A stretch of 62,517 nt of DNA, counting the filler, from Nemertoderma westbladi (taxonomy: Eukaryota; Animalia; Xenacoelomorpha), in assembly GCA_032718475.1 (NCBI GenBank). It is 4 parts of 4 records of this genome, joined end to end, with 100 filler letters (N's around TTAATTAATTAA, not from the genome) between each part and the next. Parts side by side here need not be neighbours in the genome. Positions count along the whole stretch, not along the records: positions 1 to 18,914 come from JAUCBJ010005069.1; 3 more parts are not named here. One strand, 5' to 3'. The notes under the pieces were generated by a model. It had not been told where the DNA came from, did no database searches, and saw only the letters and a program-made list of their open reading frames with translations. Position numbers and translations under genes: made by a program. Of the stretch, positions 1-54,480 are shown one piece after another. Every line of letters begins with the position of its first letter. Positions within the stretch are counted from its first letter, which is position 1.

Positions 1-3000
1 ATACAAACTTGCCTTGTTTGTTAAATTCGTTACAAGTTACCTTGTTAGTTAAATTCGTTACAAACTTGCCTTGTTAGTTAAATTCGTTACAAACTTGCCT
101 TGTTAGTTAAATTCGTTACAAACTTGCCTTGTTAGTTAAATTCGTTACAAACTTGCCTTGTTAGTTAAACTCGATACAAACTTGCCTTGTTAGTTAAATT
201 CGTTACAAACTTGCCTTGTTTGCTAAATTCGTTACAAACTTGCCTTGTTTGCTAAATTCGTTACAAACTTGCCTTGTTTGATAATCGCGTTACAAACTTG
301 CCTTGTTTGTTAAATTCGTTACATAATTGCCTTGTTTGTTTAACTCGTTACAAACTTGCCTTGTTTGATAATCGCGTTACAAACTTGCCTTGTTTGTTAA
401 TCGCGTTACAAACTTGCCTTGTTTGTTAAACTCGTTACAAACTTGCCTTGTTTGTTAAACTCGTTACAAACTTGCCTTGTTTGATAATCGCGTTACAAAC
501 TTGCCTTGTTTGTTAAACTCGTTTCAAAAATTGCATTGTTTGATAATCGCGTTACAAACTTGCCTTGTTTGATAATCGCGTTACAAACTTTCCTTGTTTG
601 TTAAACTCGTTACAAACTTGCCTTGTTTGTTAAATTCGTTACAAACTTGCCTTGTTTGTTAAACTCGTTACAAACTTTCTTTGTTTGTTAAATTCGTTAC
701 AAACTTGCCTTGTTTGTTAAATTCGTTACAAACTTGCCTTGTTTGTTAAACTCGTTACAAACTTGCCTTGTTTGTTAAACTCGTTAAAAACTTTCCTTGT
801 TTGTTAAACTCGTTACAAACTTGCCTTGTTTGTTAAATTCGTTACAAACTTGCCTTGTTTGTTAAACTCGTTACAAACTTGCCTTGTTTGTTTAACTCGA
901 TACAAACTTGCCTTGTTTGTTAAACTCGTTACAAACTTGCATTGTTTGTTAAACTCGTTACAAACTTGCATTGTTTGTTAAATTCGTTACAAACTTGCCT
1001 TGTTTGTTAAACTCGTTACAAACTTGCCTTGTTTGTTAAACTCGTTAAAAACTTTCCTTGTTTGTTAAACTCGTTACAAACTTGCCTTGTTTGTTAAATT
1101 CGTTACAAACTTGCCTTGTTTGTTAAACTCGTTACAAACTTGCCTTGTTTGTTTAACTCGTTACAAACTTGCCTTGTTTGATAATCGCGTTACAAACTTG
1201 CCTTGTTTGTTAATCGCGTTACAAACTTGCCTTGTTTGTTAAACTCGTTACAAACTTGCCTTGTTTGTTAAACTCGTTACAAACTTGCCTTGTTTGATAA
1301 TCGCGTTACAAACTTGCCTTGTTTGTTAAACTCGTTTCAAAAATTGCATTGTTTGATAATCGCGTTACAAACTTGCCTTGTTTGATAATCGCGTTACAAA
1401 CTTTCCTTGTTTGTTAAACTCGTTACAAACTTGCCTTGTTTGTTAAATTCGTTACAAACTTGCCTTGTTTGTTAAACTCGTTACAAACTTTCCTTGTTTG
1501 TTAAATTCGTTACAAACTTGCCTTGTTTGTTAAATTCGTTACAAACTTGCCTTGTTTGTTAAACTCGTTACAAACTTGCCTTGTTTGTTAAACTCGTTAA
1601 AAACTTTCCTTGTTTGTTAAACTCGTTACAAACTTGCCTTGTTTGTTAAATTCGTTACAAACTTGCCTTGTTTGTTAAACTCGTTACAAACTTGCCTTGT
1701 TTGTTTAACTCGATACAAACTTGCCTTGTTTGTTAAACTCGTTACAAACTTGCATTGTTTGTTAAACTCGTTACAAACTTGCATTGTTTGTTAAATTCGT
1801 TACAAACTTGCCTTGTTTGTTAAACTCGTTACAAACTTGCCTTGTTTGTTAAACTCGTTAAAAACTTTCCTTGTTTGTTAAACTCGTTACAAACTTGCCT
1901 TGTTTGTTAAATTCGTTACAAACTTGCCTTGTTTGTTAAACTCGTTACAAACTTGCCTTGTTTGTTTAACTCGATACAAACTTGCCTTGTTTGTTAAACG
2001 CGTTACAAACTTGCATTGTTTGTTAAACTCGTTACAAACTTGCCTTGTTTGTTAAACTCGTTACAAACTTGCCTTGTTTGTTAAACTCGTTACAAACTTT
2101 CCTTGTTTGATAAATTCGTCACAAACTTGCCTTGTTTGTTAATCTCGTTTCAAAACTTGCCTTGCCTTGTTTGTTCAACGCGTTACAAACTTGCATTGTT
2201 TGTTTAACTCGATACAAACTTGCCTTGTTTGTTAAATTCGTTACAACTTACCTTGTTTGTTAAATTCGTTACAAACTTGCCTTGTTAGTTAAATTCATTA
2301 CAAACTTGCCTTGTTAGTTAAACTCGTTACAAACTTGCCTTGTTAGTTAAATTCGTTACAAACTTGCCTTGTTAGTTAAACTCGTTACAAACTTGCCTTG
2401 TTAGTTAAATTCGTTACAAACTTGCCTTGTTTGCTAAATTCGTTACAAACTTGCCTTGTTAGTTAAATTCGTTACAGACTTGCCTTGTTTGATAATCGCG
2501 TTACAAACTTGCCTTGTTTGTTAAATTCGTTACAAACTTGCCTTGTTTGTTTAACTCGTTACAAACTTGCCTTGTTTGATAATCGCGTTACAAACTTGCC
2601 TTGTTTGTTAATCACGTTACAAACTTGCCTTGTTTGTTAAACTCGTTACAAGCTTGCCTTGTTTGTTAAACTCGTTACAAACTTGCCTTGTTTGATAGTC
2701 GCGTTACAAACTTGCCTTGTTTGTTAAACTCGTTTCAAAAATTGCATTGTTTGATAATCGCGTTACAAACTTGCCTTGTTTGATAATCGCGTTACAAACT
2801 TTCCTTGTTTGTTAAACTCGTTACAAACTTGCCTTGTTTGTTAAATTCGTTACAAACTTGCCTTGTTTGTTAAACTCGTTACAAACTTTCCTTGTTTGTT
2901 AAACTCGTTACAAACTTGCCTTGTTTGTTAAATTCGTTACAAACTTGCCTTGTTTGTTAAACTCGTTACAAACTTGCCTTATTTGTTAAACTCGTTACAA

Positions 3001-6000
3001 ACTTGCATTGTTTGTTAAATTCGTTACAAACTTGCCTTGTTTGTTAAACTCGTTACAAACTTGCCTTGTTTGTTAAACTCGTTACAAACTTTCCTTGTTT
3101 GTTAAACTCGTTACAAACTTGCCTTGTTTGTTAAATTCGTTACAAACTTTCCTTGTTTGTTAAACTCGTTACAAACTTTCCTTGTTTGTTAAACTCGTTA
3201 CAAACTTGCCTTGTTTGTTAAATTCGTTACAAACTTGCCTTGTTTGTTAAACTCGTTACAAACTTGCCTTGTTTGTTAAACTCGTTACAAACTTGCATTG
3301 TTTGTTAAATTCGTTACAAACTTGCCTTGTTTGTTAAACTCGTTACAAACTTGCCTTGTTTGTTAAACTCGTTAAAAACTTTCATTGTTTGTTAAACTCG
3401 TTACAAACTTTCCTTGTTTGTTAAATTCGTTACAAACTTGCCTTGTTTGTTAAACTCGTTACAAACTTGCCTTGTTTGTTAAATTCGTTACAAACTTGCC
3501 TTGTTTGTTAAACTCGTTACAAACTTGCCTTGATTGTTTAACTCGATACAAACTTGTCTTGTTTGTTAAACGCGTTACAAACTTGCATTGTTTGTTAAAC
3601 TCGTTACAAACTTGCCTTGTTTGTTAAACTCGTTACAAACTTGCCTTGTTTGTTAAACTCGTTACAAACTTGCCTTGTTTGTTAAACTCGTTACAAACTT
3701 GCCTTGTTTGTTAAACTCGTTACAAACTTTCCTTGTTTGATAAATTCGCCACAAACTTGCCTTGTTTGTTAATCTCGTTTCAAAACTTGCCCTTCCTTGT
3801 TTGTTAAACGCGTTACAAACTTGCATTGTTTGTTTAACTCGATACAAACTTGCCTTGTTTGTAAAATTCGTTACAACTTACCTTGTTTGTTAAATTCGTT
3901 ACAAACTTGCCTTGTTAGTTAAATTCATTACAAACTTGCCTTGTTAGTTAAACTCGTTACAAACTTGCCTTGTTAGTTAAATTCGTTACAAACTTGCCTT
4001 GTTTGCTAAATTCGTTACAAACTTGCCTTGTTAGTTAAATTCGTTACAGACTTGCCTTGTTTGATAATCGCGTTACAAACTTGCATTGTTTGTTAAACTC
4101 GTTACAAACTTTACTTGTTTGATAATCTCGCTACAAACTTTCCTTGCCTTGTTTGTTAAACTCGTTACAACTTGCCTTTTTTTGTTAAACTCGTTACAAA
4201 ACCTGCCTTGTTAGTTAAATTCGTTACAAACTTGCCTTGTTTGTTAAACTCGTTACAAACTTGCCTTGTTTGTTAAACTCGTTACAAACTTTCCTTGTTT
4301 GATAAATTCGCCACAAACTTGCCTTGTTTGTTAATCTCGTTTCAAAACTTGCCCTTCCTTGTTTGTTAAACGCGTTACAAACTTGCATTGTTTGTTTAAC
4401 TCGATACAAACTTGCCTTGTTTGTAAAATTCGTTACAACTTACCTTGTTTGTTAAATTCGTTACAAACTTGCCTTGTTTGTTAAACTCGTTACAAACTTG
4501 CATTGTTTGTTAAATTCGTTACAAACTTGCCTTGTTTGTTAAACTCGTTACAAACTTGCCTTGATTGTTTAACTCGATACAAACTTGTCTTGTTTGTTAA
4601 ACGCGTTACAAACTTGCATTGTTTGTTAAACTCGTTACAAACTTGCCTTGTTTGTTAAACTCGTTACAAACTTGCCTTGTTTGTTAAACTCGTTACAAAC
4701 TTGCATTGTTTGTTAAATTCGTTACAAACTTGCCTTGTTTGTTAAACTCGTTACAAACTTGCCTTGTTTGTTAAACTCGTTAAAAACTTTCATTGTTTGT
4801 GAAACTCGTTACAAACTTTCCTTGTTTGTTAAATTCGTTACAAACTTGCCTTGTTTGTTAAACTCGTTACAAACTTGCCTTGTTTGTTAAATTCGTTACA
4901 AACTTGCCTTGTTTGTTAAACTCGTTACAAACTTGCCTTGATTGTTTAACTCGATACAAACTTGTCTTGTTTGTTAAACGCGTTACAAACTTGCATTGTT
5001 TGTTAAACTCGTTACAAACTTGCCTTGTTTGTTAAACTCGTTACAAACTTGCCTTGTTTGTTAAACTCGTTACAAACTTGCCTTGTTTGTTAAACTCGTT
5101 ACAAACTTGCCTTGTTTGTTAAACTCGTTACAAACTTTCCTTGTTTGATAAATTCGCCACAAACTTGCCTTGTTTGTTAATCTCGTTTCAAAACTTGCCC
5201 TTCCTTGTTTGTTAAACGCGTTACAAACTTGCATTGTTTGTTTAACTCGATACAAACTTGCCTTGTTTGTAAAATTCGTTACAACTTACCTTGTTTGTTA
5301 AATTCGTTACAAACTTGCCTTGTTAGTTAAATTCATTACAAACTTGCCATGTTAGTTAAACTCGTTACAAACTTGCCTTGTTAGTTAAATTCGTTACAAA
5401 CTTGCCTTGTTTGCTAAATTCGTTACAAACTTGCCTTGTTAGTTAAATTCGTTACAGACTTGCCTTGTTTGATAATCGCGTTACAAACTTGCCTTGTTTG
5501 TTAAATTCGTTACAAACTTGCCTTGTTTGTTTAACTCGTTACAAACTTGCCTTGTTTGATAATCGCGTTACAAACTTGCCTTGTTTGTTAATCGCGTTAC
5601 AAACTTGCCTTGTTTGTTAAACTCGTTACAAGCTTGCCTTGTTTGTTAAACTCGTTACAAACTTGCCTTGTTTGATAGTCGCGTCACAAACTTGCCTTGT
5701 TTGTTAAACTCGTTTCAAAAATTGCATTGTTTGATATTCGCGTTACAAACTTGCCTTGTTTGATAATCGCGTTACAAACTTTCCTTGTTTGTTAAACTCG
5801 TTACAAACTTGCCTTGTTTGTTAAATTCGTTACAAACTTGCCTTGTTTGTTAAACTCGTTACAAACTTTCCTTGTTTGTTAAACTCGTTACAAACTTGCC
5901 TTGTTTGTTAAATTCGTTACAAACTTGCCTTGTTTGTTAAACTCGTTACAAACTTGCCTTATTTGTTAAACTCGTTACAAACTTGCATTGTTTGTTAAAT

Positions 6001-6794
6001 TCGTTACAAACTTGCCTTGTTTGTTAAACTCGTTACAAACTTGCCTTGTTTGTTAAACTCGTAACAAACTTTCCTTGTTTGTTAAACTCGTTAGTCGTTA
6101 CAAACTTGCCTTGTTTGTTAAATTCGTTACAAACTTGCCTTGTTTGTTAAACTCGTTACAAACTTTCCTTGTTTGTTAATCCCGTTACAAACTTGCCTTG
6201 TTTGTTAATCCCGTTACAAACTTGCCTTGTTAGTTAAATTCGTTACAGACTTTCCCAGTTTGATAATCGCGTTACAAACTTGCCTTGTTGGTTTAACTCG
6301 ATACAAACTTGCCTTGTTTGATAATCGCGTTACAAACTTGCATTGTTTGTTAAACTCGTTACAAACTTTACTTGTTTGATAATCTCGCTACAAACTTTCC
6401 TTGCCTTGTTTGTTAAACTCGTTACAACTTGCCTTTTTTTGTTAAACTCGTTACAAAACCTGCCTTGTTAGTTAAATTCGTTACCGGTACAAACCTTCCT
6501 TGTTTGTTAAATTTGTTACAAACTTGCCTTGTTTGTTAATCCCGTTACAAACTTGCCTTGTTAGTTAAATTCGTTACTGGTACAAACCTTCCTTGTTTGT
6601 TAAATTCGTTACAAACTTGCCTTGTTTGTTAAATTCGTTACAAACTTGCCTTGTTTGATAATCGCGTTACAAACTTCCCTTTTTTGTTAATCTTGATACA
6701 AACTTGCCTTTTTTGTTAATCTCGATACAAACTTGCCTTTTTTGTTAATCTCGTTACAAACTTACCTTTTTTGTTACATCAGTTACAAACTCAC
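1..6794. repeat. 29-bp tandem satellite (consensus GTTACAAACTTGCCTTGTTTGTTAAACTC), about 230 copies, filling the start of ACC intron 1 and running off the window start
   Basis: Continuous 29-bp periodicity. Variant blocks recur, e.g. identical 186-nt blocks at 3662, 4224 and 5070. Confidence 0.98.
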
Positions 6795-8064
6795 CTATAT
6801 TTTTATCAGGGCTCTCAAACAAAGACTCCCGGTAAAGCTGTCTGATATCCTTCACGCGATTCAACGCGACCCCCATCGCGATCTGCAGCTGAGCCGCCGG
6901 TAGATTTATCTTGGCTATCATCTCGGTGCACGGGTGTTCCACCTGGAGACGGGGGTTTAACTCAAGGAAGTAGTACTCAGCCGGTTCCGTCTCGGCGTAT
7001 AGATACTCCACAGTACCGGCGTTCGTGTACCCCACGGCCTTCGCCAACGCGATGGCTCCCTGCTCCATCCGCCGGAAGACCTGCGCATCTGCGCTGATCG
7101 CCGGCGCCTCCTCTATGATCTTCTGATGCCGTCGTTGTACCGAACAATCTCGTCCGAACAGCGAGATCACGTTACCGTAGTGATCAGCGAGAATCTGAAC
7201 CTCTATGTGTCGGACGGCGGTCGCCATGCGACACAGGAAGATTGGGGAGCCCGGTACCTCGGCCTGAACGAGTCGCAGAGCGGAAGGAATCGCATCCGGG
7301 CCGTCGACCTTTCGGATACCCTTACCGCCGCCTCCCTCGCTCGCTTTCAACATCACCGGGAATCCCAACTTAGCGGCTTCCGCCACCGCGGATTCGCAAC
7401 TCGAGATGCAGCCCTCCCGGAAGACCTCGTCGGATATCTCCACATGATGGGACGTTCCGTCGACAGGAACGTCCACGGTTAGCGCGGAACCGTTCCACGG
7501 GATAGTCGGAATCCCGATACTCTGCGCCACTATGCTCGCGCTTATTTTATCCCCCAGAGAGCGCATCGCGCTGCTAGGAGGTCCGATGAAGGCGATACCA
7601 ACCCTTTTTAAGAGTTCCGGGAGTTTCGGATTCTCGGAGGCGTGGCCCCAACCCGCCCAGACCGCGTCGCAATCCATCCGTTTCGCGATGTCCACGATCA
7701 ACTCGACGTTCGCGTAGTTGTTGTGGTTCGCGCCGCTCGGTACCGGGACGTACTGGTCCGCCATACGGATGTACTCCGCGTTACCTTTAAGGTCGTCATC
7801 CGTTACCATGACGACGAAACGAACCGCCCGCTCGTTCCGGAACGTTTCGTACGCCCATTGCCGGATGCTCCGCATACATTTGACGGCGGCGATTCCGTTG
7901 TTCGCAATGAGGACGTTTTCGATGACTCGTTTACCGCCGTGGCGGTGCACGAATTCCCCCACCGTGGCCACGTGGTCCCGGAGTTTGGAGAGGCTTCCAG
8001 TTCGGACGTGGGTCCGACGGCCACGAGGTTCCAGCAGGGAATTGTGGCGTGGTGATGTCGTCAT
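6795..8064 (-). CDS. ACC: Acetyl-CoA carboxylase, first coding exon (biotin carboxylase domain); the gene continues beyond the window start
   Basis: Motifs [53 protein letters not shown] and [14 protein letters not shown]. Likely ATG at 8064 (MTTSP), with HVRTGSLS resembling the N-terminal AMPK-site region. Donor ATAG|GTGAGT at 6795/6794. Confidence 0.95.
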
Positions 8065-8169
8065 TATTACTGCATACTGTAGCTGTGTAGGCCTACTGTT
8101 GTACTTGTACTGATACCGTATTGCTGTAGTGTAAGGAAATGGCAGTGCAGCGCAGCAATGTGTTACCGG

Positions 8170-8814
8170 CCAGGCTGCAAACCACCACTGAAACGCGCAC
8201 AACACCCGCGCACAATTTTTCAGCCGCGCAATATCTGACAATATACCGCGCACGGACTGAAAAAACGCGCACACCAAGCTGAAAAACAATTCAATTCACA
8301 CAAACATACGAATACAGGAAGAAATAAAAAATATTTATTAACGTAAAGAAATAAAAAAATAAATTTAAGCAATGCAAAATGAAAAAAAACATGAGAGCGA
8401 AATTTTTCATTTTAACAATGTAGAATGAAAACGAAACGCGAGCGAAGCGTGTGAAATTTTTAACTTTTATATGTACCGGTAGCATGTAGGTTAGTAGGTC
8501 TAAAATGAAAAAAAAGGGGAGCGAAGCAGCGAAATTTTTTTATTTTAACAATGTAAAATGAAAACGAAATAGCGAGCGAAAACGAGAGAAAATTTTTATG
8601 GCTAATTATTTTTCTCATTAAATTGCAGTTTTGCACACACTTTACAACTTTTTTTACACCTCATCCGCGCACTTTGCTGCTTTGACTTTTAATATTTTGC
8701 ACAGATTATCGCGCACTTTTGGTGTTTTTCACACAATTCCGCGCACTTTTACCGCGCACTATTTCAAAACGGCGCACAACGCGTTGCGATTTTTGCACTC
8801 CATTTGCAGCCTGG
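8170..8814. mobile_element. Non-autonomous hAT-like element (MITE) about 105 bp upstream of the ACC ATG
   Basis: 12-bp TIR CCAGGCTGCAAA/TTTGCAGCCTGG. 8-bp TSD GTTACCGG at 8162-8169 and 8815-8822. Subterminal CGCGCAC repeats. Confidence 0.85.
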
Positions 8815-22644: not shown

Positions 22645-25600
22645 TGCCAACCATATTGGCCAATGCCAACCATATTGACAAATGTCCCCTACGTGATTTG
22701 GGACATATTGATATGGTATAGGAAGGAATTTACATGGAAACGATTATTATAAATTTTGATATTTATTTTCCAATTAAAAACAAATCATAAAATTCTTCAA
22801 ACAATTCCTCCGTACTAGAATTTAAATCCAGTTGATCATCCTTCCTCCTTCCCACCGCCTACTCCTGTTCCATTCCCAACTTCCATCCCACTGCCAACTC
22901 CTGTTCCATTCCCTACTTCCATCCCACTGCCAACTCCTGTTCCATTCCCTACTTCCATCCCACTCTCAACTACTGTCCCAATCTCAAAACCCTTTCCACA
23001 AATAGTTTATTTGGTCTGTTGTCAATTAAGGGGAAGGAGCAGGTTACAGTTTATCTGTGACTGGTAAGCCCCCAACCATTAATTAAATGTAAGTAATTAG
23101 TTGTTTAGACCAACACAATGTCAAGTATGGGACATCCGGTCACGTTATGGGACATAGCAGTTTTTTCAACCTGGCTAAATAAATGTTTACTTAGCAGTCT
23201 CACTGATACAACCCATACATGGCAAAACTATCTGAGAAATGGATGTGGTGATCTAAATCTTTATAAGTTCGCGTTTTCTGATAGAATACCTCCGTTAAGT
23301 ATGGGACACTTTTTTGGACCATTTTGGAGACGGTCACGCAATATATTATTCATATGAACTGCTAAACCACCAAAAATTGGCAATCTAAATCAATCTATAT
23401 CATTAAATTAATCATTTACCGAGTGTCACGTATGTGACAAAAAATCGGACCACGTTAATAGTTTTTGTATTTCTGATATCTCAAATTTACTAGGAAGCTA
23501 TTTTTATTTGTTCACAGGAATTATACTCTGCAGGGATATTAATCGTTTATTTGTTCACAGGAATTATACTCAGCAGTGATATTAATCGTTTATTTGTTCA
23601 CAGGAATTATACTCAGCAGGGATATTAATCGTTTATTTGTTCACAGGAATTATACTCAGCAGGGATATTAATCGTTTATTTGTTCACAGGAATTATACTC
23701 AGCAGGGATATTAATCGTTTATTTGTTCACAGGAATTATACTCAGCAGTGATATTAATCGTTTATTTGTTCACAGGAATTACACTCAGCAGGAATATTAA
23801 TCGTTTATTTGTTCACAGGAATTATACTCAGCAGGAATATTAATCGTTTATTTGTTCACAGGAATTATACTCAGCAGGAATATTAATCGTTTATTTGTTC
23901 ACAGGAATTATACTCAGCAGGAATATTAATCGTTTATTTGTTCACAGGAATTATACTCAGCAGTGATATTAATCGTTTATTTGTTCACAGGAATTATACT
24001 CAGCAGGAATATTAATCGTTTATTTGTTCACAGGAATTATACTCAGCAGGAATATTAATCGTTTATTTGTTCACAGGAATTATACTCAGCAGGAATATTA
24101 ATCGTTTATTTGTTCACAGGAATTATACTCAGCAGGAATATTAATCGTTTATTTGTTCACAGGAATTATACTCTGCAGGGATATTAATCGTTTATTTGTT
24201 CACAGGAATTATACTCAGCAGTGATATTAATCGTTTATTTGTTCACAGGAATTATACTCAGCAGGAATATTAATCGTTTATTTGTTCACAGGAATTATAC
24301 TCAGCAGTGATATTAATCGTTTATTTGTTCACAGGAATTACACTCAGCAGGAATATTAATCGTTTATTTGTTCACAGGAATTATACTCAGCAGGAATATT
24401 AATCGTTTATTTGTTCACAGGAATTATACTCAGCAGTGATATTAATCGTTTATTTGTTCACAGGAATTACACTCAGCAGGGATATTAATTGTTTATTTGT
24501 TCACAGGAATTATACTCAGCAGGGATATTAATAGTTTATTTGTTCACAGGAATTATACTCAGCAGTGATATTAATCGTTTATTTGTTCACAGGAATTATA
24601 CTCAGCAGGAATATTAATCGTTTATTTGTTCACAGGAATTATACTCAGCAGTGATATTAATCGTTTATTTGTTCACAGGAATTACACTCAGCAGGAATAT
24701 TAATCGTTTATTTGTTCACAGGAATTATACTCAGCAGGAATATTAATCGTTTATTTGTTCACAGGAATTATACTCAGCAGGAATATTAATCGTTTATTTG
24801 TTCACAGGAATTATACTCAGCAGTGATATTAATCGCTTATTTGTTCACAGGAATTATACTCAGCAGGAATATTAATCGTTTATTTGTTCACAGGAATTAT
24901 ACTCAGCAGGGATATTAATCGTTTATTTGTTCACAGGAATTATACTCAGCAGGGATATTAATCGTTTATTTGTTCACAGGAATTATACTCAGCAGGGATA
25001 TTAATCGTTTATTTGTTCACAGGAATTACACTCAGCAGGAATATTAATCGTTTATTTGTTCACAGGAATTATACTCAGCAGGAATATTAATCGTTTATTT
25101 GTTCACAGGAATTATACTCAGCAGGAATATTAATCGTTTATTTGTTCACAGGAATTATACTCAGCAGTGATATTAATCGCTTATTTGTTCACAGGAATTA
25201 TACTCAGCAGGAATATTAATCGTTTATTTGTTCACAGGAATTATACTCAGCAGGGATATTAATCGTTTATTTGTTCACAGGAATTATACTCAGCAGGGAT
25301 ATTAATCGTTTATTTGTTCACAGGAATTATACTCAGCAGGGATATTAATCGTTTATTTGTTCACAGGAATTATACTCAGCAGGAATATTAATCGTTTATT
25401 TGTTCACAGGAATTATACTCAGCAGGAATATTAATCGTTTATTTGTTCACAGGAATTATACTCAGCAGGGATATTAATCGTTTATTTGTTCACAGGAATT
25501 ATACTCAGCAGGGATATTAATCGTTTATTTGTTCACAGGAATTATACTCAGCAGGGATATTAATCGTTTATTTGTTCACAGGAATTATACTCAGCAGGGA

Positions 25601-26015
25601 TATTAATCGTTTATTTGTTCACAGGAATTATACTCAGCAGGAATATTAATCGTTTATTTGTTCACAGGAATTATACTCAGCAGGAATATTAATCGTTTAT
25701 TTGTTCACAGGAATTATACTCAGCAGGGATATTAATCGTTTGGCACCTGAATTGTACAATATTAATGGCCAAAATGAGCCCGTAATCACAATCATAAAAT
25801 TTGAAATTTGTCCCGTAAGTGACGATTTTATTTTTTAATTCATTGTAGCTTTTTATATAACAAACTGTGGTTGGAGTCTATCACAGCGCAGGAGGGGACC
25901 GACTATAGTGTATCTGGCGATCAAATTATCAAAGCCAACCGACCATTCATTTTCGAATGATTTACATTTTTGCATATTTTTTGTCCCGTACGTGACTTGG
26001 TCAATATGGTTGGCA
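22645..26015. mobile_element. Non-autonomous TIR element carrying a 43-bp satellite, in GALNT intron 4
   Basis: 19-bp TIR TGCCAACCATATTG(G/A)CCAA at 22645, tandemly repeated, and inverted at 25997-26015. (TA)n on both flanks. GTCACGTA..GGACA subterminal motifs in opposite orientations. Confidence 0.7.
23503..25741. repeat. 43-bp tandem satellite, about 52 copies (GTTTATTTGTTCACAGGAATTATACTCAGCAGG[G/A]ATATTAATC)
   Basis: Very homogeneous 43-bp periodicity. Confidence 0.98.
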
Positions 26016-29514: not shown

Positions 29515-30416
29515 ATGATTAATGTTTGTGCCCTTGATTGATATCTGTCCCTCGTTTATTGTTTGTGTCCCTCATTAATGTTTGTGTATCTCATTAATGT
29601 TTGTGTCCCTCATTAATGTTTGTGTCCCTCATTAATGTTTGTGTATCTCATTAATGTTTGTGTCTCTCATTAATGTTGTGTCCCTCATTAATGTTTGTGT
29701 CCCTCATTAATGTTTGTGTATCTCATTAATGTTTGTGTCCCTCATTAATGTTGTGTCCCTCATTAATGTTTGTGTCCCTCGTTAATATTTGTGTTCCTCA
29801 TTAATGTTTGTGTCCCTCATTAATGTTTGTGTCCCTCATTAATGTTTGTGTCCCTCATTAATGTTTGTGTCCCTCATTAATGTTTGTGCCTTTGATTGAT
29901 ATCTGTCCCTCGTTTATTGTTTGTGTCCCTCATTAATGTTTGTGTCGCTCATTAATGTTTGTGTCCCTCATTAATATTTGTGTACCTCATTAATGTTAGT
30001 TTCCCTCAATTAATGTTTGTGTCCCTCATTAATGTTTGTGTCGCTCATTAATGTTTGTGTCCCTCATTAATATTTGTGTCCCTCATTAATGTTGTGTCCC
30101 TCATTAATGTTTGTGTCCCTCATTAATGTTTGTGTCCCTCATTAATGTTTGTGTCCCTCATTAATGTTTGTCACCCTCAGTAATATTTGTGTTCCTCATT
30201 AATGTTTGTGTCCCTCATTAATGTTTGTGTCCCTCATTAATGTTTGTGTTCCACATTAATGTTTGTGTCCTATATCAATGTTTATGTCCCACATTATTGT
30301 TTGTGTCCTACATCAATGTTTATGTCCCACATTAATGTTTGTCACCCTGATTAATGTTTGTCCCACACTAATGTTTGTGGCGCTGATAATATCTGTCCCT
30401 CATTTAATGTTTGTCT
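29515..30416. repeat. 19-bp satellite (CATTAATGTTTGTGTCCCT), about 47 copies, with about 4 inverted copies at 28858-28940
   Basis: 19-bp periodicity plus a reverse-complement mini-array upstream. Confidence 0.95.
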
Positions 30417-31110
30417 CCAAGTTGCTATGGGGTTCAGGACGTTTTGGATAACTTGGTCAGTAACAAGCAACTTGATTTGAGTAACATTAACTTTTAGTCT
30501 CCGTTATATGAGGCATCTTTTACAGCAACAAACTTCGCGTTTACATAGCGCAACTTGATCGGCAACCTGACCTGCTCACTAAGTTGCTGATAGAGTTGCT
30601 CAAAATGTTGCCACGTACTGTAGAAAAAACAGATCTTTAATTATTCGTCATGACGTACTGTAAGTGAACTTTACTTTAACGTAGCTGTAACCCTGTAGCT
30701 AGACTTTGTTCTTACTGTAGAGTACCACCCATGGCTATATTTTGTACTTAGAGTTCCGCTTTCTTGAATCAAAATTTTGTTCTTATAGTTCTGCATTTGG
30801 CTACATTTTGTTCAATTTGTATTGATACATGATTCTAACTACAGTCCCGTACTTATTTTAGAAGCAATTAATACCAAAATATCAAAAACTTATGGAGCCC
30901 TTTGATTTTGAATTCAAAAATTTCCAACATGTGCGCAAGTGTGTTAGCTATATTGTATGTGATTATTTGTTATTATTGCGTTTACAGGTAATACTAACAC
31001 CTGATCATGTGCTAGTTAACATTTTAGATAGCACGTTTTAGCTAATAACAAATGCGCACATGTATTACGTGCGCACTACGCACTAAATTATTAAGGACGT
31101 ACGATAAGCC

Positions 31111-32236: not shown

Positions 32237-32475
32237 CTTAGAACGTCTCCTGGTTGGCTGTAATAAGCGAACGTGTTCATTTCTATAACGTCAATCATTG
32301 GCTGGGCTACAGCCAATCGGTTAACGGCAATCAAGTTCAGCAACGGCGGGAGCCAATTAACGTTGGCTTCGCAGTGACAGTCGAGGAATGTGAGGACCTG
32401 TCCCTTAGCGTGGGAGACCCCCAAGAGACGAGCACGGGTGAGTCCCAGACGAACGTCGCTGCGTAATATGTGAAC
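32237..32475 (-). CDS. GALNT10: GALNT exon 3 (DxH catalytic motif)
   Basis: GLTRARLLG and [19 protein letters not shown]. Acceptor CTTACAG|GTT and donor AG|GTAAAA. Confidence 0.94.
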
Positions 32476-32487
32476 CTGTAAGAGCAC

Positions 32488-35400
32488 GTGAACATATACG
32501 GAACCTGTTTAAGTGAACATATACGGAATCTGTTTAAGTGAACATATACGGAACCTGTTTAAGTGAACATATACGGAACCTGTTTAAGTGAACATATACG
32601 GAACCTGTTTAAGTGAACATATACGGAACCTGTTTAAGTGAACATATACGGAACCTGTTTAAGTGAACATATACGGAACCTGTTTAAGTGAACACACGGA
32701 ACCTAATTAAGTGAACATATACGGAATCTGTTTAAGTGAACACACGGAACCTAATTAAGTGAACATATACGGAACCTGTTTAAGTGAACATATACCGAAC
32801 CTGTTTAAGTGAACACACGGAACCTGTTTAAGTGAACATATACGGAACCTGTTTAAGTGAACATATACGGAACCTGTTTAAGTGAACATATACGGAACCT
32901 GTTTAAGTGAACATATACGGAACCTGTTTAAGTGAACATATACGGAATCTGTTTAAGTGAACATATACGGAACCTGTTTAAGTGAACACACGGAACCTAA
33001 TTAAGTGAACATATACGGAACCTAATTAAGTGAACATATACGGAACCTGTTTAAGTGAACATATACCGAACCTGTTTAAGTGAACACACGGAACCTGTTT
33101 AAGTGAACATATACGGAACCTGTTTAAGTGAACATATACGGAACCTGTTTAAGTGAACATATACGGAACCTGTTTAAGTGAACATATACGGAACCTGTTT
33201 AAGTGAACATATACGGAACCTGTTTAAGTGAACATATACGGAACCTGTTTAAGTGAACACACGGAACCTAATTAAGTGAACATATACGGAATCTGTTTAA
33301 GTGAACACACGGAACCTAATTAAGTGAACATATACGGAACCTGTTTAAGTGAACATATACGGAACCTGTTTAAGTGAACACACGGAACCTAATTAAGTGA
33401 ACATATACGGAATCTGTTTAAGTGAACACACGGAACCTAATTAAGTGAACATATACGGAACCTGTTTAAGTGAACATATACGGAACCTGTTTAAGTGAAC
33501 ATATACGGAACCTGTTTAAGTGAACATATACGGAACCTGTTTAAGTGAACATATACGGAACCTGTTTAAGTGAACACACGGAACCTAATTAAGTGAACAT
33601 ATACGGAATCTGTTTAAGTGAACACACGGAACCTAATTAAGTGAACATACACGGAACCTGTTTAAGTGAACATATACGGAACCTGTTTAAGTGAACATAT
33701 ACGGAACCTGTTTAAGTGAACATATACGGAACCTGTTTAAGTGAACATATACGGAACCTGTTTAAGTGAACATATACGGAACCTGTTTAAGTGAACACAC
33801 GGAACCTAATTAAGTGAACATATACGGAATCTGTTTAAGTGAACACACGGAACCTAATTAAGTGAACATATACGGAACCTGTTTAAGTGAACATATACCG
33901 AACCTGTTTAAGTGAACACACGGAACCTGTTTAAGTGAACATATACGGAACCTGTTTAAGTGAACATATACGGAACCTGTTTAAGTGAACATATACGGAA
34001 CCTGTTTAAGTGAACATATACGGAATCTGTTTAAGTGAACATATACGGAACCTGTTTAAGTGAACACACGGAACCTAATTAAGTGAACATATACGGAACC
34101 TAATTAAGTGAACATATACGGAACCTGTTTAAGTGAACATATACCGAACCTGTTTAAGTGAACACACGGAACCTGTTTAAGTGAACATATACGGAACCTG
34201 TTTAAGTGAACATATACGGAACCTGTTTAAGTGAACATATACGGAACCTGTTTAAGTGAACATATACGGAATCTGTTTAAGTGAACATATACGGAACCTG
34301 TTTAAGTGAACACACGGAACCTAATTAAGTGAACATATACGGAACCTAATTAAGTGAACATATACGGAACCTGTTTAAGTGAACATATACCGAACCTGTT
34401 TAAGTGAACACACGGAACCTGTTTAAGTGAACATATACGGAACCTGTTTAAGTGAACATATACGGAACCTGTTTAAGTGAACATATACGGAACCTGTTTA
34501 AATGAACATATACGGAACCTGTTTAAGTGAACACACGGAACCTGTTTAAGTGAACATATACGAAACATGTTTAAATGAACATAATTAAGTGAACATATAC
34601 GGAACCTGTTTAAGTGAACACACACGGAACCTGTTTAAGTGAACATATACGGAACCTGTTTAAGTGAACATATACGGAACCTGTTTAAGTGAACATATAC
34701 AGAACCTGTTTAAATGAACATATACGGAACCTGTTTAAGTGAACACACACGGAACCTGTTTAAGTGAACATATACGGAACCTGTTTAAGTGAACATATAC
34801 GGAACCTGTTTAAGTGAACACACGGAACCTAATTAAGTGAACATACACGGAACCTAATTAAGTGAACATATACGGAACCTGTTTAAATGAACATATACGG
34901 AACCTGTTTAAGTGAACACACGGAACCTAATTAAGTGAACATATACGGAACCTGTTTAAGTGAACATATACGGAACCTGTTTAAGTGAACATATACGGAA
35001 CCTGTTTAAGTGAACACACGGAACCTAATTAAGTGAACATATACGGAACCTGTTTAAGTGAATACACACGGAACCTAATTAAGTGAACATATACGGAACC
35101 TGTTTAAGTGAACATATACGGAACCTGTTTAAGTGAACACACGGAACCTAATTAAGTGAACATATACGGAACCTGTTTAAGTGAATACACACGGAACCTA
35201 ATTAAGTGAACATATACGGAACCTGTTTAAGTGAACATATACGGAACCTGTTTAAGTGAACACACGGAACCTAATTAAGTGAACATATACGGAACCTGTT
35301 TAAGTGAACATATACGGAACCTGTTTAAGTGAACACACGGAACCTAATTAAGTGAACATATACGGAACCTGTTTAAGTGAACATATACGGAACCTGTTTA

Positions 35401-37480
35401 AGTGAACACACGGAACCTAATTAAGTGAACATATACGGAACCTGTTTAAGTGAACACACACGGAACCTAATTAAGTGAACATATACGGAACCTGTTTAAG
35501 TGAACATATACGAAACATGTTTAAGTGAACACACACGGAACCTAAATAAGTGAACATATACGGAACCTGTTTGAATGAACATATACGAAACATGTTTAAG
35601 TGAACACACACGGAACCTAAATAAGTGAACATATACGGAACCTGTTTGAATGAACATATACGGAACCTGTTTAAGTGAACATAAACGGAACCTGTTTAAG
35701 AGAACACACGGAACCTAATTAAGTGAACACATACGGAACCTGCTTAAGTGAACACACACGGAACCTAATTAAGTGAACATATACGGAACCTGTTTAAGTG
35801 AACACATACCGAACCTGTTTAAGTGAACACACGGAACCTAATTAAGTGAACATATACGGAACCTGTTTAAGTGAACACACGGAACCTAATTAAGTGAACA
35901 TATACGGAACCTGTTTAAGTGAACACACACGGAACCTAATTAAGTGAACATATACGGAACCTGTTTAAGTGAACATATACGAAACATGTTTAAGTGAACA
36001 CACACGGAACCTAAATAAGTGAACATATACGGAACCTGTTTGAATGAACATATACGAAACATGTTTAAGTGAACACACACGGAACCTAAATAAGTGAACA
36101 TATACGGAACCTGTTTGAATGAACATATACGGAACCTGTTTAAGTGAACATAAACGGAACCTGTTTAAGAGAACACACGGAACCTAATTAAGTGAACACA
36201 TACGGAACCTGTTTAAGTGAACACACACGGAACCTAATTACGTGAACATATACGGAACCTGTTTAAGTGAACACATACCGAACCTGTTTAAGTGAACATA
36301 TACGGAACCTGTTTAAATGAACATATACGGAACCTGTTTAAGTGAACACACGGAACCTAATTAAGTGAACATATACGGAACCTGTTTAAGTGAACACACG
36401 GAACCTAATTAAGTGAACATATACGGAACCTGTTTAAGTGAACACACGGAACCTAATTAAGTGAACACATACGGAACCTGTTTAAGTGAACACATACCGA
36501 ACCTGTTTAAGTGAACACACGGAACCTAATTAAGTGAACATATACGGAACCTGTTTAAATGAACATATACGGAACCTAATTAAGTGAACATATACGGAAC
36601 CTGTTTAAATGAACATATACGGAACCTAATTAAGTGAACATATACGGAACCTGTTTAAATGAACATATACGGAACCTAATTAAGTGAACATATACGGAAC
36701 CTGTTTAAGTGAACACACACGGAACCTAATTACGTGAACATATACGGAACCTGTTTAAGTGAACACATACCGAACCTGTTTAAGTGAACACACGGAACCT
36801 AATTAAGTGAACATATACGGAACCTGTTTAAGTGAACACACGGAACCTAATTAAGTGAACATATACGGAACCTGTTTAAGTGAACACACACGGAACCTAA
36901 TTACGTGAACATATACGGAACCTGTTTAAGTGAACACATACCGAACCTGTTTAAGTGAACACACGGAACCTAATTAAGTGAACATATACGGAACCTGTTT
37001 AAATGAACATATACGGAACCTAATTAAGTGAACATATACGGAACCTGTTTAAATGAACATATACGGAACCTAATTAAGTGAACATATACGGAACCTGTTT
37101 AAATGAACATATACGGAACCTAATTAAGTGAACATATACGGAACCTGTTTAAGTGAACACACACGGAACCTAATTACGTGAACATATACGGAACCTGTTT
37201 AAGTGAACACATACCGAACCTGTTTAAGTGAACACACGGAACCTAATTAAGTGAACATATACGGAACCTGTTTAAGTGAACACACACGGAACCTAATTAC
37301 GTGAACATATACGGAACCTCTTTAAGTGAACACATACCGAACCTGTTTAAGTGAACACGCGGAACCTAATTAAGTGAAAACATACCGAACCTGTTTAAGT
37401 GAACACACGGAACCTAATTAAGTGAACATATACGGAATCTGTTTAAGTGAACATTTACGGAACCTGTTTACGTAAACATA
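32488..37480. repeat. 23-25-bp satellite (GTGAACATATACGGAACCTGTTTAA and variants), about 200 copies, filling GALNT intron 2
   Basis: Continuous periodicity with TGTTTAA/TAATTAA and TATA/CA variants. Confidence 0.98.
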
Positions 37481-37743
37481 CGAAACACGTTTCATAAAAC
37501 GGTCTGTCCTTGTACCATACGATGGTACGAATATAAAAAAATTGGGTCGGGTTTCTTTTCGCAAATTTGGGTTTTCAGGTGTAAAATTTATAGTTAAAAA
37601 TGTGTAAAAATATTTACTATTTGTTCCATAATCTTTGTTTCGGCTAGTAAAGCTAGAAAAGCTCGTCGCTAAAACCTACTATTTTACCATAATAAAGCTC
37701 TTTAAAATAATGGCAACAGTCAATGTGAGCTGCCGATACTAAC

Positions 37744-41780: not shown

Positions 41781-43208
41781 TATACCAGTATTTAATATAT
41801 ATACCAGTATATAGTTTTTGATTATGCATGACACTCTGCGGGCCTTTGGACGGACTTTATAATTTTATTACTTGGACTGGAATTTCAACTAATTCGTAAA
41901 TCGGTGATCCCGATCCGTTAAGATATATATCCCCGTCAAGATATATATATATATATTATATAGGCCTATATGATATAAAAGAAGAAGATACACCACGAAA
42001 ACAATGAGCAACCCAAGAAGATCATCAACAGGGAATAACGCAAAGGCCAGCCAAAAGAAGTTTGTACAAACTAGTGTAGAATGTGGGGCGAGCCACGAAG
42101 TGAGTGAGCCTTAGCGTAGTGGTACCATTAATCAACCTGTCGTTCTGTCGTGTTCAATTTTAAACGTTAATAACTCGGCCAATCTTTGATGAAATCTATC
42201 CAAACTTGGTACACATGTTGTTTGGCAAAAGTTTAGAAATTTTCCAAGTAGAATTTCCGTGTGGCCTTCGAGAAGCTAAGATAATAGCAGTTAATTAGTT
42301 AATTAAGTTGATTACGGTGAAAACACCATTTTCAACCTGCCTTTTAAAGGAAATTAATTGTTTTACAGTATAAGATTTAAATAATTATAATTAAAAATTA
42401 TACAGATGTAATCCACATACGCCATTCTATTATAGTTTTTAATTAGTTCAAGTGATTTGCTTTAATAATTGTGTCTTTAATTGATCTAAAGTAATTAAAA
42501 CGGCATAAAAAATTGATTCTATTAAATACTGATCATTTATTGGCCAACTTGCAAGTTGGCTGGTACATAGATGGGGGATGTGTGTGTAAGGGAGCCAGTT
42601 GCTGGGAATGCCAGTGGAGGGGGGTTGTATGTAACTAGCCACACGGCTGCCAGCTAGACCTAACGAGATTGAAACCTGCATTCCCTACCTCCTATTACAC
42701 TATAGAGTCTGTGTTCTTTAGTCTCAGGTAATAGACAGATCTCATTTAATGATTGTCAGTCAATAAGATTACCACTGCGCAGAAGGCTTATATCCAAAAT
42801 TGTTTATTTCTCAAAATATTATGCTTATTATTTTTTGATGGGATTTCTGTGTATTTTAATTGTCTAAGTTTTCAGAGGCATTAACAGTATATTAAATAAA
42901 TTATTTGAATATCATTCATTACTGCATCGACTGTATTTAGTACTGCGTAGATTATATTCCTATAAACCACCTGGCTTCGCATATTGAACGTGCGATTGGA
43001 AATAAGTTCGTGCTACCTTCCGTGGGTGGTAGATGTCGCGGTTATGTATTGGTGGGTGGGAAGGGTGGGGGGGGGGGGGGGGGTGGTGGGGTGGGGTGGG
43101 GGTGCAGATTTAAAGGGCTGAACACGTACTGTCCCTCTTTTTTTGATTGATTGGCGGTGTGGTTAAATTTCTAAATTTTACTAATTTATAAAGTTAAATA
43201 CTGATTTT

Positions 43209-44147
43209 GTGATACAGTCGCTCGATATTAATTTGTATCTCATAACTGGGCCTCGTGCTGCGCGAAGGCCCCACGAACGTGTACATTCTGCACATCAACC
43301 TGGACTGATATTCAGTTACCTGAAGAGATGGCGCGTAAAAAAAACCATTGTATCTAAGAAATTTGCCTGTGGATTCTGCGCTGCTGAGCACTTATCCCGC
43401 TTGTCAGTGATGGAGGAAGAAAATCTACAGTTGCAGCAGGAACTGGAAGCAATGAAAAAAAAGATAAGCGTAGACTTAGACGGCGAAGATAAGCTAGTTG
43501 CTAGTAAGGAATTATCAGATATGCGTTGCGAGATCGAAGAACGTTTCAACGAAGTTGAGGCTTCCCAAGCCGGGCTTCAGACAAAGATTGATAAAAGTGA
43601 TACTTCTCCCATTGCAGTAGATCAAGATGAGAGTTCGTCTACCTGGGTGGAAGTGGTGCGCCAAAATACCAAAAAGCTTGAAGACCTAAATAAAAAAATG
43701 GACGTTCGAACCCAACAGCAACCTCAAATCGCTATTGAGAGAGCAATACGATTACATGATCAACGCAAATGCAACGTTGTGATTAAACATATCCCTGGAG
43801 ATAACGCAACTAACGAGTCTGCCAAACAACGATCTCTGGATACAAAGTTCCTAGAGGACTCACTAGGAGAAAAAATAGAATGCCGCGGGATCCAGAGGCT
43901 TGGAAAACCACGAGATGATAATTCTGCTCGAATAATATTGCTCTCATATGACTCCCCCATTGAAGCAAATAAAATGCTAGCACGTCGCAACTTCACAGTG
44001 GATGGAACCAAATACTACTTCGACAGGGACATGTCAAAAAGTGAAAGAGAAGCTGAATACAATGCTCGGCAGAAGAGGCGAGGAGTACAAGAACAGAAGT
44101 CCACATCAGGTCCCAAGAATCAAACAGATGCGGAACGGGTAGATTGA
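43209..44147 (+). CDS. LINE ORF1 (CxxC motif, coiled coil, RRM-like RKCNVVI..QRLGK..RIILL); true start uncertain
   Basis: Motifs typical of CR1/L2-group ORF1, lying directly upstream of an APE-RT ORF. Confidence 0.8.
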   Translation: MIQSLDINLYLITGPRAARRPHERVHSAHQPGLIFSYLKRWRVKKTIVSKKFACGFCAAEHLSRLSVMEEENLQLQQELEAMKKKISVDLDGEDKLVASKELSDMRCEIEERFNEVEASQAGLQTKIDKSDTSPIAVDQDESSSTWVEVVRQNTKKLEDLNKKMDVRTQQQPQIAIERAIRLHDQRKCNVVIKHIPGDNATNESAKQRSLDTKFLEDSLGEKIECRGIQRLGKPRDDNSARIILLSYDSPIEANKMLARRNFTVDGTKYYFDRDMSKSEREAEYNARQKRRGVQEQKSTSGPKNQTDAERVD

Positions 44148-47100: not shown

Positions 47101-47427
47101 TAAACGATGACAAAACCGAGTTTATAATATTAGGAACCCCGCAACAATTATCTAAACTAACTACTAAGTCTATTCGTGTTGGGGACTTTGAAATATATCC
47201 AGCAAAATCGGTGAAGAACCTTGGTGCATGGCTCGATCCTGGTCTAACCATGAGCAAGTTCATAACAAAAACTTGTAGCGCAGCCTTCTTCCACCTCCAC
47301 AATATTCGACGCATCGCTAACTTTCTCGACCAGAAGTCTGCAGAAACCATCATACACTCGCTCATATCAAGCCGTATCGATTACTGTAACGGTCTTCTCT
47401 ACGGTGTACCTGGCTACCAACTTGCAA
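44148..47427 (+). CDS. L2-like LINE ORF2 (APE endonuclease plus reverse transcriptase), open until the assembly gap
   Basis: CALTETW, VGDFN, GHTLDLI, SDH, NFRPVS, VLLDLSAAFDTVDH, GFPQG, YADD and SRIDYCNGLL. No stop codon from 44148 to the gap. Confidence 0.95.
44194..44920 (+). repeat. 30-bp GC-rich coding minisatellite, about 24 copies (decapeptide about ARPPAASPAP), ahead of the APE domain
   Basis: GGCCCCCGGCTGCGTCGCCA... recurs every 30 nt with no indels. Confidence 0.97.
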
Positions 47428-47527
47428 NNNNNNNNNNNNNNNNNNNNNNNNNNNNNNNNNNNNNNNNNNNNTTAATTAATTAANNNNNNNNNNNNNNNNN
47501 NNNNNNNNNNNNNNNNNNNNNNNNNNN
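47428..47527. other. Scaffold gap with artificial linker
   Basis: N block containing TTAATTAATTAA. Confidence 0.99.
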
Positions 47528-53065: not shown

Positions 53066-53556
53066 CTGAAATGTAATTTTTCAAAATAAAGACTGATGTA
53101 GAAATTTACATTGTTATATATTTATTAAGAACCTCCATATCGGCTTTACTAATGATTATCAGATGATACTATGTCTATCATTGTAATGGTTTATCATAAA
53201 TGTCGAACAATAACTACTAAAACTACGGCGCCCAAAGTTATCTTGAACGCACAACATATAATCTCGAGCGCATTTGCACTACTCACCAAATCAGGCCAAA
53301 CTATCAAATCCAAAATATCTTTACCGTATATAACAAAAAAATATATTTCACAAAGTCCCTTTAGGGGCGCCGGACAAAACACCAAAACACAAATTTATAT
53401 TATTTTTTAAATCCCCTGAGACAAAGACAAATCACTTGGCTGAGGCCTTTCTACCAAGACCAGTTTGAAGAACTTTTATCAGACCCATATTGGATATTAT
53501 TTGCAGGACATAAGCGCTAGTGATATAGTTATTTTTACATACGATATAACAACAAA

Positions 53557-53812
53557 GGTTATTGTTTTGGTTAGAAAAATCCGTCTCTATAACCTGCTCC
53601 TTTCCCTCAATTGGTAACAAGATCGTTTATTGTTTTGGTTAGAAAAGGCCATATCTGTAACCTGCTCCATTCCCTCAATTGGTAACAACATCGTTTATTG
53701 TTTTGGTTAGAAAAACCCGTCTCTGTAACCTGCTCCATCCCCTCAATTGGTAACAACATCGTTTATTGTTTTGGTTTGAAAACCCCGTATGAGAAACCTG
53801 CCCCTTTCCCTA
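53557..53812. repeat. 68-bp tandem array (about 3.7 copies) of the dispersed TTTATTGTTTTGGTTAG...CTGTAACCTG..CCCTCAATTGG module
   Basis: Period 68 (53561, 53629, 53697, 53765). Single copies occur elsewhere in the window. Confidence 0.9.
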
Positions 53813-54239: not shown

Positions 54240-54480
54240 AAATGTCTTAATCTGGAATCTAACTATTTGAGTGAGAAACTGAAACCTTCCAAACTTTCCA
54301 AACTGCAATTCAGCTAATGCTGGCCTCCTGAAGATTCCACGGTATCGGGTTAAAAATTATTGAAAACCGGCCTTTAGTGTCTCGGCTCCGACCACTGCAC
54401 TCCGACTCCGACTCCCGGCTCCGACCACCTGGACCTCGCTACCCTCTGATGTGCGCTCTGCACCGACCATAGCTAGCCTA
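54240..54480 (+). mobile_element. Degraded L2 LINE 3' fragment in the ABCC intron
   Basis: SANAGLLKIPRYRV..AFSVSAPT..WTSLPSDVRSA. Confidence 0.6.

What the first reader, a model, noticed from the sequence alone, without database searches (positions are those of the whole stretch)
1..6806. ACC intron satellite looks like an amplified copy of its own 5' splice junction
Seen: on the sense strand the real junction reads ATAAAAATATAG|GTGAGTTTGTAAC. The array starts there in register with 29-nt monomers TTAACAAACAAG-GCAAGTTTGTAAC (11/13 intron-side matches). The second monomer has a perfect AAG|GTAAGT (6766/6765), which would frameshift if used. Nearly all others have AAG|GCAAGT. Established: this is the consensus donor of GC-AG introns. 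Inference: the array arose by amplification of the exon-intron boundary, so the pre-mRNA carries about 230 potential U1 sites. These could act as decoys or U1 sponges, or reflect selection for the weaker GT>GC variant.
Basis: partly seen in the sequence, partly recalled or inferred. Interest (0 to 1): 0.78.

Follow-up and report, generated by a model that had tools for sequence, protein, structure and literature searches.

The report
Large splice-donor "mirage" repeat in ACC
A 29-base unit resembling the predicted splice signal at the end of an exon of an animal's acetyl-CoA carboxylase gene is repeated at least 232 times right behind that exon, and a neighbouring gene shows the mirror-image arrangement, so this is likely a large but harmless example of a repeat type already known from lancelets and human genes.

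Summary
Observation mostly confirmed. A 232-unit, 29-nt array starts exactly at the predicted ACC donor (6795|6794, minus strand) and runs off the window. Contigs of two samples span the border. 'Nearly all GCAAGT' is overstated: 155 of 232 units read AAG|GCAAGT, and four more internal perfect GT donors were missed. No RNA run was available, so donor use is inferred. Protein conservation favours the first donor; a U1-pairing model favours the second. Exon-side likeness is weak (8 of 11 nt, not beyond chance over 16 nt). Public contigs suggest a single-locus array. A second case sits in the same window: a 25-nt, about 200-copy array ending at a GALNT acceptor and carrying its junction word. This fits a known kind: amphioxus 'mirages' and human F7, IFI6 and CBS minisatellites, here with 10- to 70-fold more copies. 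A decoy or U1-sponge role is not supported: the donor columns are no more conserved than the rest of the unit. Selection for GT>GC cannot be shown. The scan found this arrangement before: at 16 other loci of this genome and in octopus, mussel and shark (unchecked notes).

The parts
6795..8064 (-). ACC first coding exon (ATG at 8064; biotin carboxylase domain; 423 codons plus one base)
   Evidence: contigs of two samples
6789..6797 (-). Predicted true donor, TAG|GTGAGT, cut at 6795|6794, phase 1
   Evidence: sequence; protein-profile argument; use not shown by RNA
6766..6794 (-). Unit 1, the most diverged unit (7 differences from consensus); likely intronic
6760..6768 (-). Second, perfect-consensus donor AAG|GTAAGT, cut at 6766|6765; frameshifting relative to the first
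1..6794 (-). 29-nt tandem array, 232 units, 57 unit types, block duplications of 9 to more than 100 units; runs off the window
5284..5292 (-). Internal perfect GT donor copy (the same variant recurs at 4443, 3881 and 2251)
32488..37486 (-). Second junction-anchored array: 25-nt unit, about 200 copies, fills 4,999 of 5,268 nt of GALNT intron 2 and carries ACAG|GTTC like the acceptor it ends at
32237..32487 (-). GALNT acceptor (cut at 32476|32475) and exon 3 (32475-32237)
   Evidence: six-exon model gives 635 aa without an internal stop; Pfam Glycos_transf_2

Best explanation
This is likely a 'mirage'-type minisatellite: a short piece straddling the predicted ACC exon end and splice donor was likely duplicated head to tail and then expanded to the 232 or more copies seen, and splicing likely ignores the copies by using the donor nearest the exon. 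Shown: the array, its register with the predicted donor, its block duplications, and the mirror-image array at a GALNT acceptor. Inferred: (1) the seed was a duplication of roughly 11-16 nt of exon end plus about 13 nt of intron start; (2) unequal crossing-over or slippage homogenised the inner copies and swept the GT>GC and -4 A>C variants through them, while the edge units kept older states; (3) the exon-proximal donor at 6795|6794 is the main one, as shown for human F7; (4) the array persists because a duplication across a junction leaves one intact exon and only lengthens the intron. It is tolerated rather than functional.
For: The array begins at the very base of the predicted donor. States fade inward: +2 is T in units 1-2 and then mostly C; -4 is A in the exon and units 1-4 and then mostly C; unit 1 has 7 mismatches, and block means are 3.05 for the first 20 units and 0.85-2.25 elsewhere. 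The peptide read from unit 1 scores like noise on a profile of 227 distinct homologous linkers (-15.1; homologue mean +15.1; 43% of shuffles score as high), while ten residues just upstream beat 99.9% of shuffles. The family keeps I-x-F in 223 of 227 linkers, with x coded by a G-starting codon in 168 of 216, which fits a phase-1 cut after Ile. In run X1 the listed long contigs touching the unit were two: the ACC exon end and one 2,397-nt contig leaving the array at unit position +12 into A/T-rich DNA, as expected of one locus whose array ends after the intron-head half. The 29-mer is found nowhere else in the window. GALNT case: 8-nt exact match across the acceptor, reached by 48 of 20,000 shuffles; exon-side score reached by 0.8-2.2% of coding stretches. 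Precedent: F7 uses only the most upstream donor even against stronger copies (PMC1557585); amphioxus mirages occur at both 5' and 3' borders, do not disturb splicing and exclude edge units from homogenisation (PMC3087553; PMC3902484).
Against: Exon-side likeness at the ACC donor is weak and depends on the window chosen (1.5% for 11 nt; 14-29% for 16 nt; local alignment 1.9%; none corrected for multiple tries). The second donor pairs with U1 as well as the first (-10.6 kcal/mol each) and is predicted more open (opening cost 1.1 against 4.4 kcal/mol). Reading to the second donor gives a 23-residue linker, the commonest length in homologues (219 of 222; 147 of 227 distinct). Position +3 of the copies (A) matches the second donor, not the first (G). 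Chance alone puts one of the four other large arrays across a junction with probability about 0.04-0.06, and three of those four lie far from any inferred junction. The far-end contig has a third of single-copy depth (6.7 against 21.2) and was listed in one run only; 512 records were not shown.
Confidence: 0.74

Rival explanations
1. The second donor (6766|6765) is the real one, unit 1 is coding, and the intron itself arose by tandem duplication of an exonic AG|GT segment (Rogers-type intron gain), later expanded.
For: Perfect and more accessible donor. Linker length of 23 residues. Unit 1 is open in frame. The unit starts G(T/C) and ends AG. By eye, read-through homologues break at AQLQ, SENPDE and FKPSSG and not in this linker, which suggests a lineage-specific intron. 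The mechanism is documented (PMC3443670; PMC2812944).
Against: The unit-1 peptide is noise-like, lacks the prolines found in the last four linker residues of 223 of 227 homologues, and breaks the I-x-F spacing (0 of 227 have only I-x-x-F). The likely far end runs into A/T-rich DNA, not into exon 2.
Confidence: 0.11
2. An ordinary intronic satellite that happened to contain a donor-like word grew up to the exon edge or supplied the donor; the exon gave no sequence.
For: Exon-side likeness is near chance over 16 nt. The unit has its own internal sub-repeat (seen in the sequence).
Against: A shuffled 29-mer carries AG|GYRAG in only 166 of 20,000 trials. The start is exactly in register. No other loci were evident. 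The GALNT case has exon-side identity.
Confidence: 0.09
3. The copies are kept by selection as U1 decoys, a U1 sponge or landing pads along a long intron, or the second donor is a regulated frameshifting ('poison') donor that tunes ACC levels.
For: 169 AG|GYRAG sites. GC copies pair with U1 at -5.9 kcal/mol, within the range of the window's six other inferred donors (-3.0 to -11.4). A strong, open GT donor persists 29 nt behind the first. IFI6 and CBS use proximal pseudo-donors (PMC1557585, introduction).
Against: No extra conservation of the donor columns. +2 A (30 units) and -1 T (25 units) variants spread freely. No AATAAA or ATTAAA on the sense strand for U1 to mask.
Confidence: 0.06

Closest known systems
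Amphioxus 'mirage' minisatellites (Adh3, troponin C, globins BflGb6 and BflGb9, PGBD5); PMC3087553 and PMC3902484, passages read
   Same: Tandem copies of an exon-intron boundary, at 5' or 3' borders; AG/GT signals in many but not all copies; concerted evolution that leaves out the edge units; unit length within the Adh3 range of 10-72 bp.
   Different: 232 or more and about 200 copies, against 3-6 in BflGb6. Exon-side identity is eroded at ACC. Most copies carry GC. The ACC does not look like a lancelet's (long branch, 69% best identity). Splicing was not tested here.
Human junction-spanning VNTRs: F7 IVS7 (37 bp, 5-9 copies), IFI6/6-16 (25 pseudo-sites), CBS IVS13 (15-20), LMNB2, PDGF; PMC1557585, abstract, synopsis, introduction and passages read
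   Same: The first monomer spans the donor, so the donor is reiterated into the intron; 29 nt is in the same size class.
   Different: About 10 to 45 times more copies. In F7 the pseudo-sites are identical to the true donor; here they differ at +2 and +3.
Intron gain by tandem genomic duplication of AGGT (Rogers model); PMC3443670 and PMC2812944, passages read
   Same: Tandem unit bounded by AG and G(T/C); the intron position seems lineage-specific (by eye).
   Different: The unit does not read as ACC coding sequence, and the likely far end does not abut exon 2.

Membership tests
mirage / junction-spanning minisatellite | Tandem array that begins at an exon-intron boundary, in register with it | tested here: met
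   Distance 0 from the predicted donor; border present in contigs of two samples; the donor itself is predicted, not shown
mirage / junction-spanning minisatellite | Unit reiterates the splice signal | tested here: met
   169 AG|GYRAG sites; 166 of 20,000 shuffles carry such a word
mirage / junction-spanning minisatellite | Unit contains sequence derived from the exon side | tested here: inconclusive
   ACC: 8 of 11 nt (1.5%), 7-8 of 16 nt (14-29%). GALNT array: 8-nt exact span, 48 of 20,000 shuffles
mirage / junction-spanning minisatellite | Locus-specific, not a dispersed satellite family | tested here: inconclusive
   None elsewhere in the window; two long flank contigs listed in X1, and 1 of 35, 0 of 17 and 1 of 477 laid contigs only partly fitting; whole genome not held
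mirage / junction-spanning minisatellite | Concerted evolution with diverged edge units | tested here: met
   Unit 1 has 7 mismatches, first 20 units average 3.05, inner blocks 0.85-2.25; exact block duplications
mirage / junction-spanning minisatellite | mRNA uses mainly the exon-proximal site | not testable with these tools
   No RNA holder listed
Rogers-type intron gain by tandem duplication | Unit is exonic coding sequence, one copy kept in the mRNA | tested here: not met
   Unit-1 peptide scores like shuffles; the test assumes right-anchored, ungapped alignment
Rogers-type intron gain by tandem duplication | Array ends at the acceptor of the next exon | tested here: inconclusive
   One contig, likely the far end, leaves into A/T-rich DNA; only 30 letters seen
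GC-AG intron | A GC donor is actually used | not testable with these tools
   No RNA; the copies only match the GC-donor consensus (consensus recalled, not from a call)

The most novel reading that the evidence does not exclude
In this animal, splice junctions are hot spots that seed giant tandem arrays genome-wide through a splicing-coupled mutational process, making junction amplification the main engine of intron growth; at ACC the strong second donor is a used, frameshifting switch.
Probability: 0.13. Interest if true: 0.75.

Novelty: new member of a known kind. Interest (0 to 1): 0.27.

Why it matters
As a single locus it is ordinary: a large example of a repeat type described in lancelets and human genes. 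Its value is as a natural test of splice-site choice. One exon end faces six perfect GT donors and about 160 GC donors, and a neighbouring exon faces about 196 intact acceptors. If junction-anchored arrays prove enriched genome-wide beyond what short ancestral introns and a high duplication rate predict, that would point to an undescribed link between splicing and repeat birth. That claim belongs to the genome, not to this locus, and rests so far on unchecked notes.

Tried and rejected
No whole genome is held, so no genome-wide test was possible. No RNA holder listed. Runs X1-X4 laid on 6730-8400 showed no spliced joint or listed loose end at either donor; X1-X3 run on from the exon into the array as DNA does, and X4 covered only 7195-7369. 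X5 gave nothing on the unit, which is no proof of absence. Summed contig depth on the unit (peaks 50,103, 2,128 and 85,150 against about 21, 9 and 13-19 on the exon) is not a copy number and was not used. A loose end that looked like an allele of unit 1 was set aside, because its second read is only about nine letters and fits the internal GT units. Three homology searches and one search of representatives found no relative above 69% over most of the exon, so no exon-2 sequence. A 48-row ACC tree left the window on a long branch (0.76) with no named close kin; rows were hand-picked and no acoel row was included. Hairpin masking of the copies was tested and not kept: an inner trimer folds with z -3.3 against dinucleotide shuffles, but only 11% of tandem shuffled monomers fold as well or better, which is not significant, and the first donor is about as closed (4.4 kcal/mol) as the inner copies (mean 4.6, n=151). 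Pyrimidine content does not separate GALNT acceptor copies (6-8 of 11) from the seven inferred acceptors (6-8). A near-match count beside 14 junctions flagged the GALNT acceptor clearly (9 at 3 mismatches), the ACC donor barely (1), and 12 others not at all. The idea that the unit is a tiny intron or ratchet step was dropped: its AG lacks a pyrimidine tract, and the window's inferred introns are 261 nt or longer. Literature searches for a genome-wide description found nothing relevant (two searches returned no paper). The library lacks most subscription papers, so this does not show it is unpublished. PMC10565955 (passages) and PMC10078293 (passages) did not describe such arrays in the passages seen. 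No supplements were read.

Full report
The observation. Tandem Repeats Finder gives a 29-nt array at 2-6791 with 232.3 copies and 89% matches. On the minus strand it follows a 1,270-nt coding exon, ATG at 8064, that encodes the biotin carboxylase part of a eukaryotic acetyl-CoA carboxylase. The frame meets a stop 13 codons into the array, far short of a whole ACC, so an intron must open nearby. Two GT donors are on offer: TAG|GTGAGT at 6795|6794 and AAG|GTAAGT at 6766|6765. The array splits into 232 units in register from 6794. Of these, 155 read AAG|GCAAGT; at +2 the counts are C 194, A 30, T 7, G 1. Four perfect GT donors lie inside, at 5289, 4443, 3881 and 2251; they share one variant context, and exact block duplications run through the array. 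Contigs from two samples cover the exon and the first two units without a differing letter, so the border is not an assembly artefact.

Which donor is real. No RNA holder was listed, and no homologue close enough to show exon 2 was found. For the second donor: it pairs with U1 as well as the first (-10.6 kcal/mol each; U1 end recalled), it is predicted more open (1.1 against 4.4 kcal/mol), and reading up to it gives 23 residues from the linker Tyr, the length in 219 of 222 homologues with a recognised linker, out of 228. For the first donor: the ten residues unit 1 would add score -15.1 on a profile of 227 distinct linkers (from 320 of 492 proteins). Homologues average +15.1 and only 1 of 227 scores as low; 43% of stop-free shuffles score as high. 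The ten known exonic residues at the start of the linker beat 99.9% of shuffles. The I-x-F motif is present in 223 of 227 linkers and I-x-x-F alone in none; x has a G-starting codon in 168 of 216, which a phase-1 cut after Ile would supply. In human F7 the most upstream donor wins even against stronger copies (PMC1557585). I put the first donor at about 0.8. This is inference.

Did the unit come from the junction. The exon side is the test. The last 11 exon bases match units 1 and 2 at 8 positions, reached by 1.5% of 410 AG-ending coding stretches of the window; over 16 bases, or against the consensus, the match is at chance level. A gapped local alignment of the exon end with unit 1 is reached by 1.9% of 1,198 other exon windows. 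More telling is the gradient: T at +2 in units 1-2 and A at -4 in the exon and units 1-4 give way to C in the consensus, and unit 1 is the most diverged. Two consensus-like units laid on public contigs picked up, among the long records listed for X1, only the ACC exon contig and one 2,397-nt contig that leaves the array at unit position +12 into A/T-rich DNA. That is what one array with two ends would give, ending after the intron-head half of the unit. Caveats: that contig has depth 6.7 against 21.2, was listed in one run of four, and 512 records were not shown. The 29-mer occurs nowhere else in the window at up to 8 mismatches.

A second case in the same window. A six-exon GALNT gene on the minus strand (38703-20677) gives 635 residues with no internal stop. 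Its second intron is 5,268 nt, of which 4,999 are a 25-nt array ending 12-13 nt before the acceptor at 32476|32475. The unit carries ACAG|GTTC, identical to the real junction over 8 nt (48 of 20,000 shuffles), and resembles the exon start (0.8% of 2,553 coding stretches; 2.2% of 1,812 starting with G). 196 YAG sites are intact. Each of the five nearest copies tested would shift the frame or bring in a stop. Three other large non-coding arrays (43, 19 and 81 nt) lie 311 nt or more from any inferred junction. Under uniform seeding, one hit among those four arrays has probability about 0.04-0.06: suggestive, not strong.

How it most likely works. A duplication across a junction leaves one complete exon and adds spare splice signals to the intron. 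If the exon-proximal site wins, the change is nearly neutral, and unequal exchange can then expand and homogenise the array. The GC variant likely arose in unit 3 or further in and swept. Whether selection helped cannot be told. Against a maintained decoy or sponge role: the nine donor columns are no more constant than the other twenty (4.4% against 6.3%; 14 of 29 rotations as low), donor-killing variants at +2 and -1 are common, and no polyadenylation hexamer lies on the sense strand. Against strict purging: perfect GT copies were multiplied, and the GALNT array keeps its AG. For possible U1 binding: the GC copies pair at -5.9 kcal/mol, no worse than three of the six other inferred donors. 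Hairpin masking was tested and not kept.

Comparison with what is known. PMC3087553 (passages) describes amphioxus 'mirages': tandem copies of 5' or 3' exon-intron boundaries, units of 10-160 bp, splicing undisturbed, edge units left out of homogenisation, and a proposed route to new introns. PMC3902484 (one passage) adds troponin C and PGBD5. PMC1557585 (abstract, synopsis, introduction, passages) lists F7, IFI6, CBS, LMNB2 and PDGF, with 5-25 copies; IFI6 and CBS also use two proximal pseudo-donors. The present arrays work like these and meet the testable defining features, with exon-side origin and single-locus status inconclusive and splicing untested. They differ in size and in the GC consensus. 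Searches for a genome-wide account found none, within a library that lacks most subscription papers.

Earlier notes of this scan, consulted after my own reading was fixed, list 16 distinct other loci of this genome with donor- or acceptor-anchored arrays, most of hundreds to about 2,100 copies. Several report an assembled transcript using the exon-proximal site, and one reports a variant copy in use. They also list cases in octopus, mussel and shark. 54 and 53 of the genome's 79 notes fit my two word queries; these are word matches, not verified cases. One note calls the animal a likely acoel; my tree neither confirms nor excludes that. I tested none of these notes. Look-ups near this place and by the unit's sequence returned nothing.

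Verdict. Real, mostly as described, and a new member of a known kind. This locus is a small and eroded example by the standards of those notes. Interest 0.27.

Noticed in passing
window 32488-37486 with acceptor 32476|32475 (minus strand): Acceptor-side mirage array in GALNT intron 2: 25-nt unit, about 200 copies, 196 intact YAG sites; only 269 nt of the intron is not array.
   Followed up: yes
window 8161-8400: High-copy interspersed element about 105 nt upstream of the ACC start codon: contig depth in the thousands against 8-21 on the exon, with many different flanks at 8169-8170; no second copy in the window.
   Followed up: partly
window 53547-53816; also about 29289, 39312, 54892, 17814, 23017, 19362: A 68-nt unit occurs as four tandem copies and as dispersed single or partial copies in both orientations.
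   Followed up: partly
window 43185-47480 (plus strand): LINE-like element: ORF1-like frame, then endonuclease and reverse transcriptase frame, with a 30-nt GC-rich repeat at 44194-44920 and an N run near 47480.
   Followed up: no
window 49454-55377 (minus) and 60363-61412 (plus): ABCC-type transporter with a coding exon of about 3.6 kb and an apparently single-exon E2F gene; with the 1.27-kb ACC exon this suggests an intron-poor lineage.
   Followed up: partly
window 23503-25741, 29518-30418, 55688-56440: 43-, 19- and 81-nt arrays that lie 311 nt or more from any inferred junction; useful as negative controls.
   Followed up: partly
window 6795-6830 (minus): The ACC linker has its Ile at offset 13 where 204 of 216 homologues have it at 11; the two extra residues lie next to the array and could be a scar of an older duplication.
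   Followed up: partly
window 7122-7177: Contigs of all three deep runs break near 7122-7150 inside the ACC exon, with raised depth and one loose end, suggesting a short word shared with another locus.
   Followed up: no
protein P0301: One yeast ACC record departs from the family right after the same linker Ile; unexplained, possibly an assembly or annotation error.
   Followed up: no
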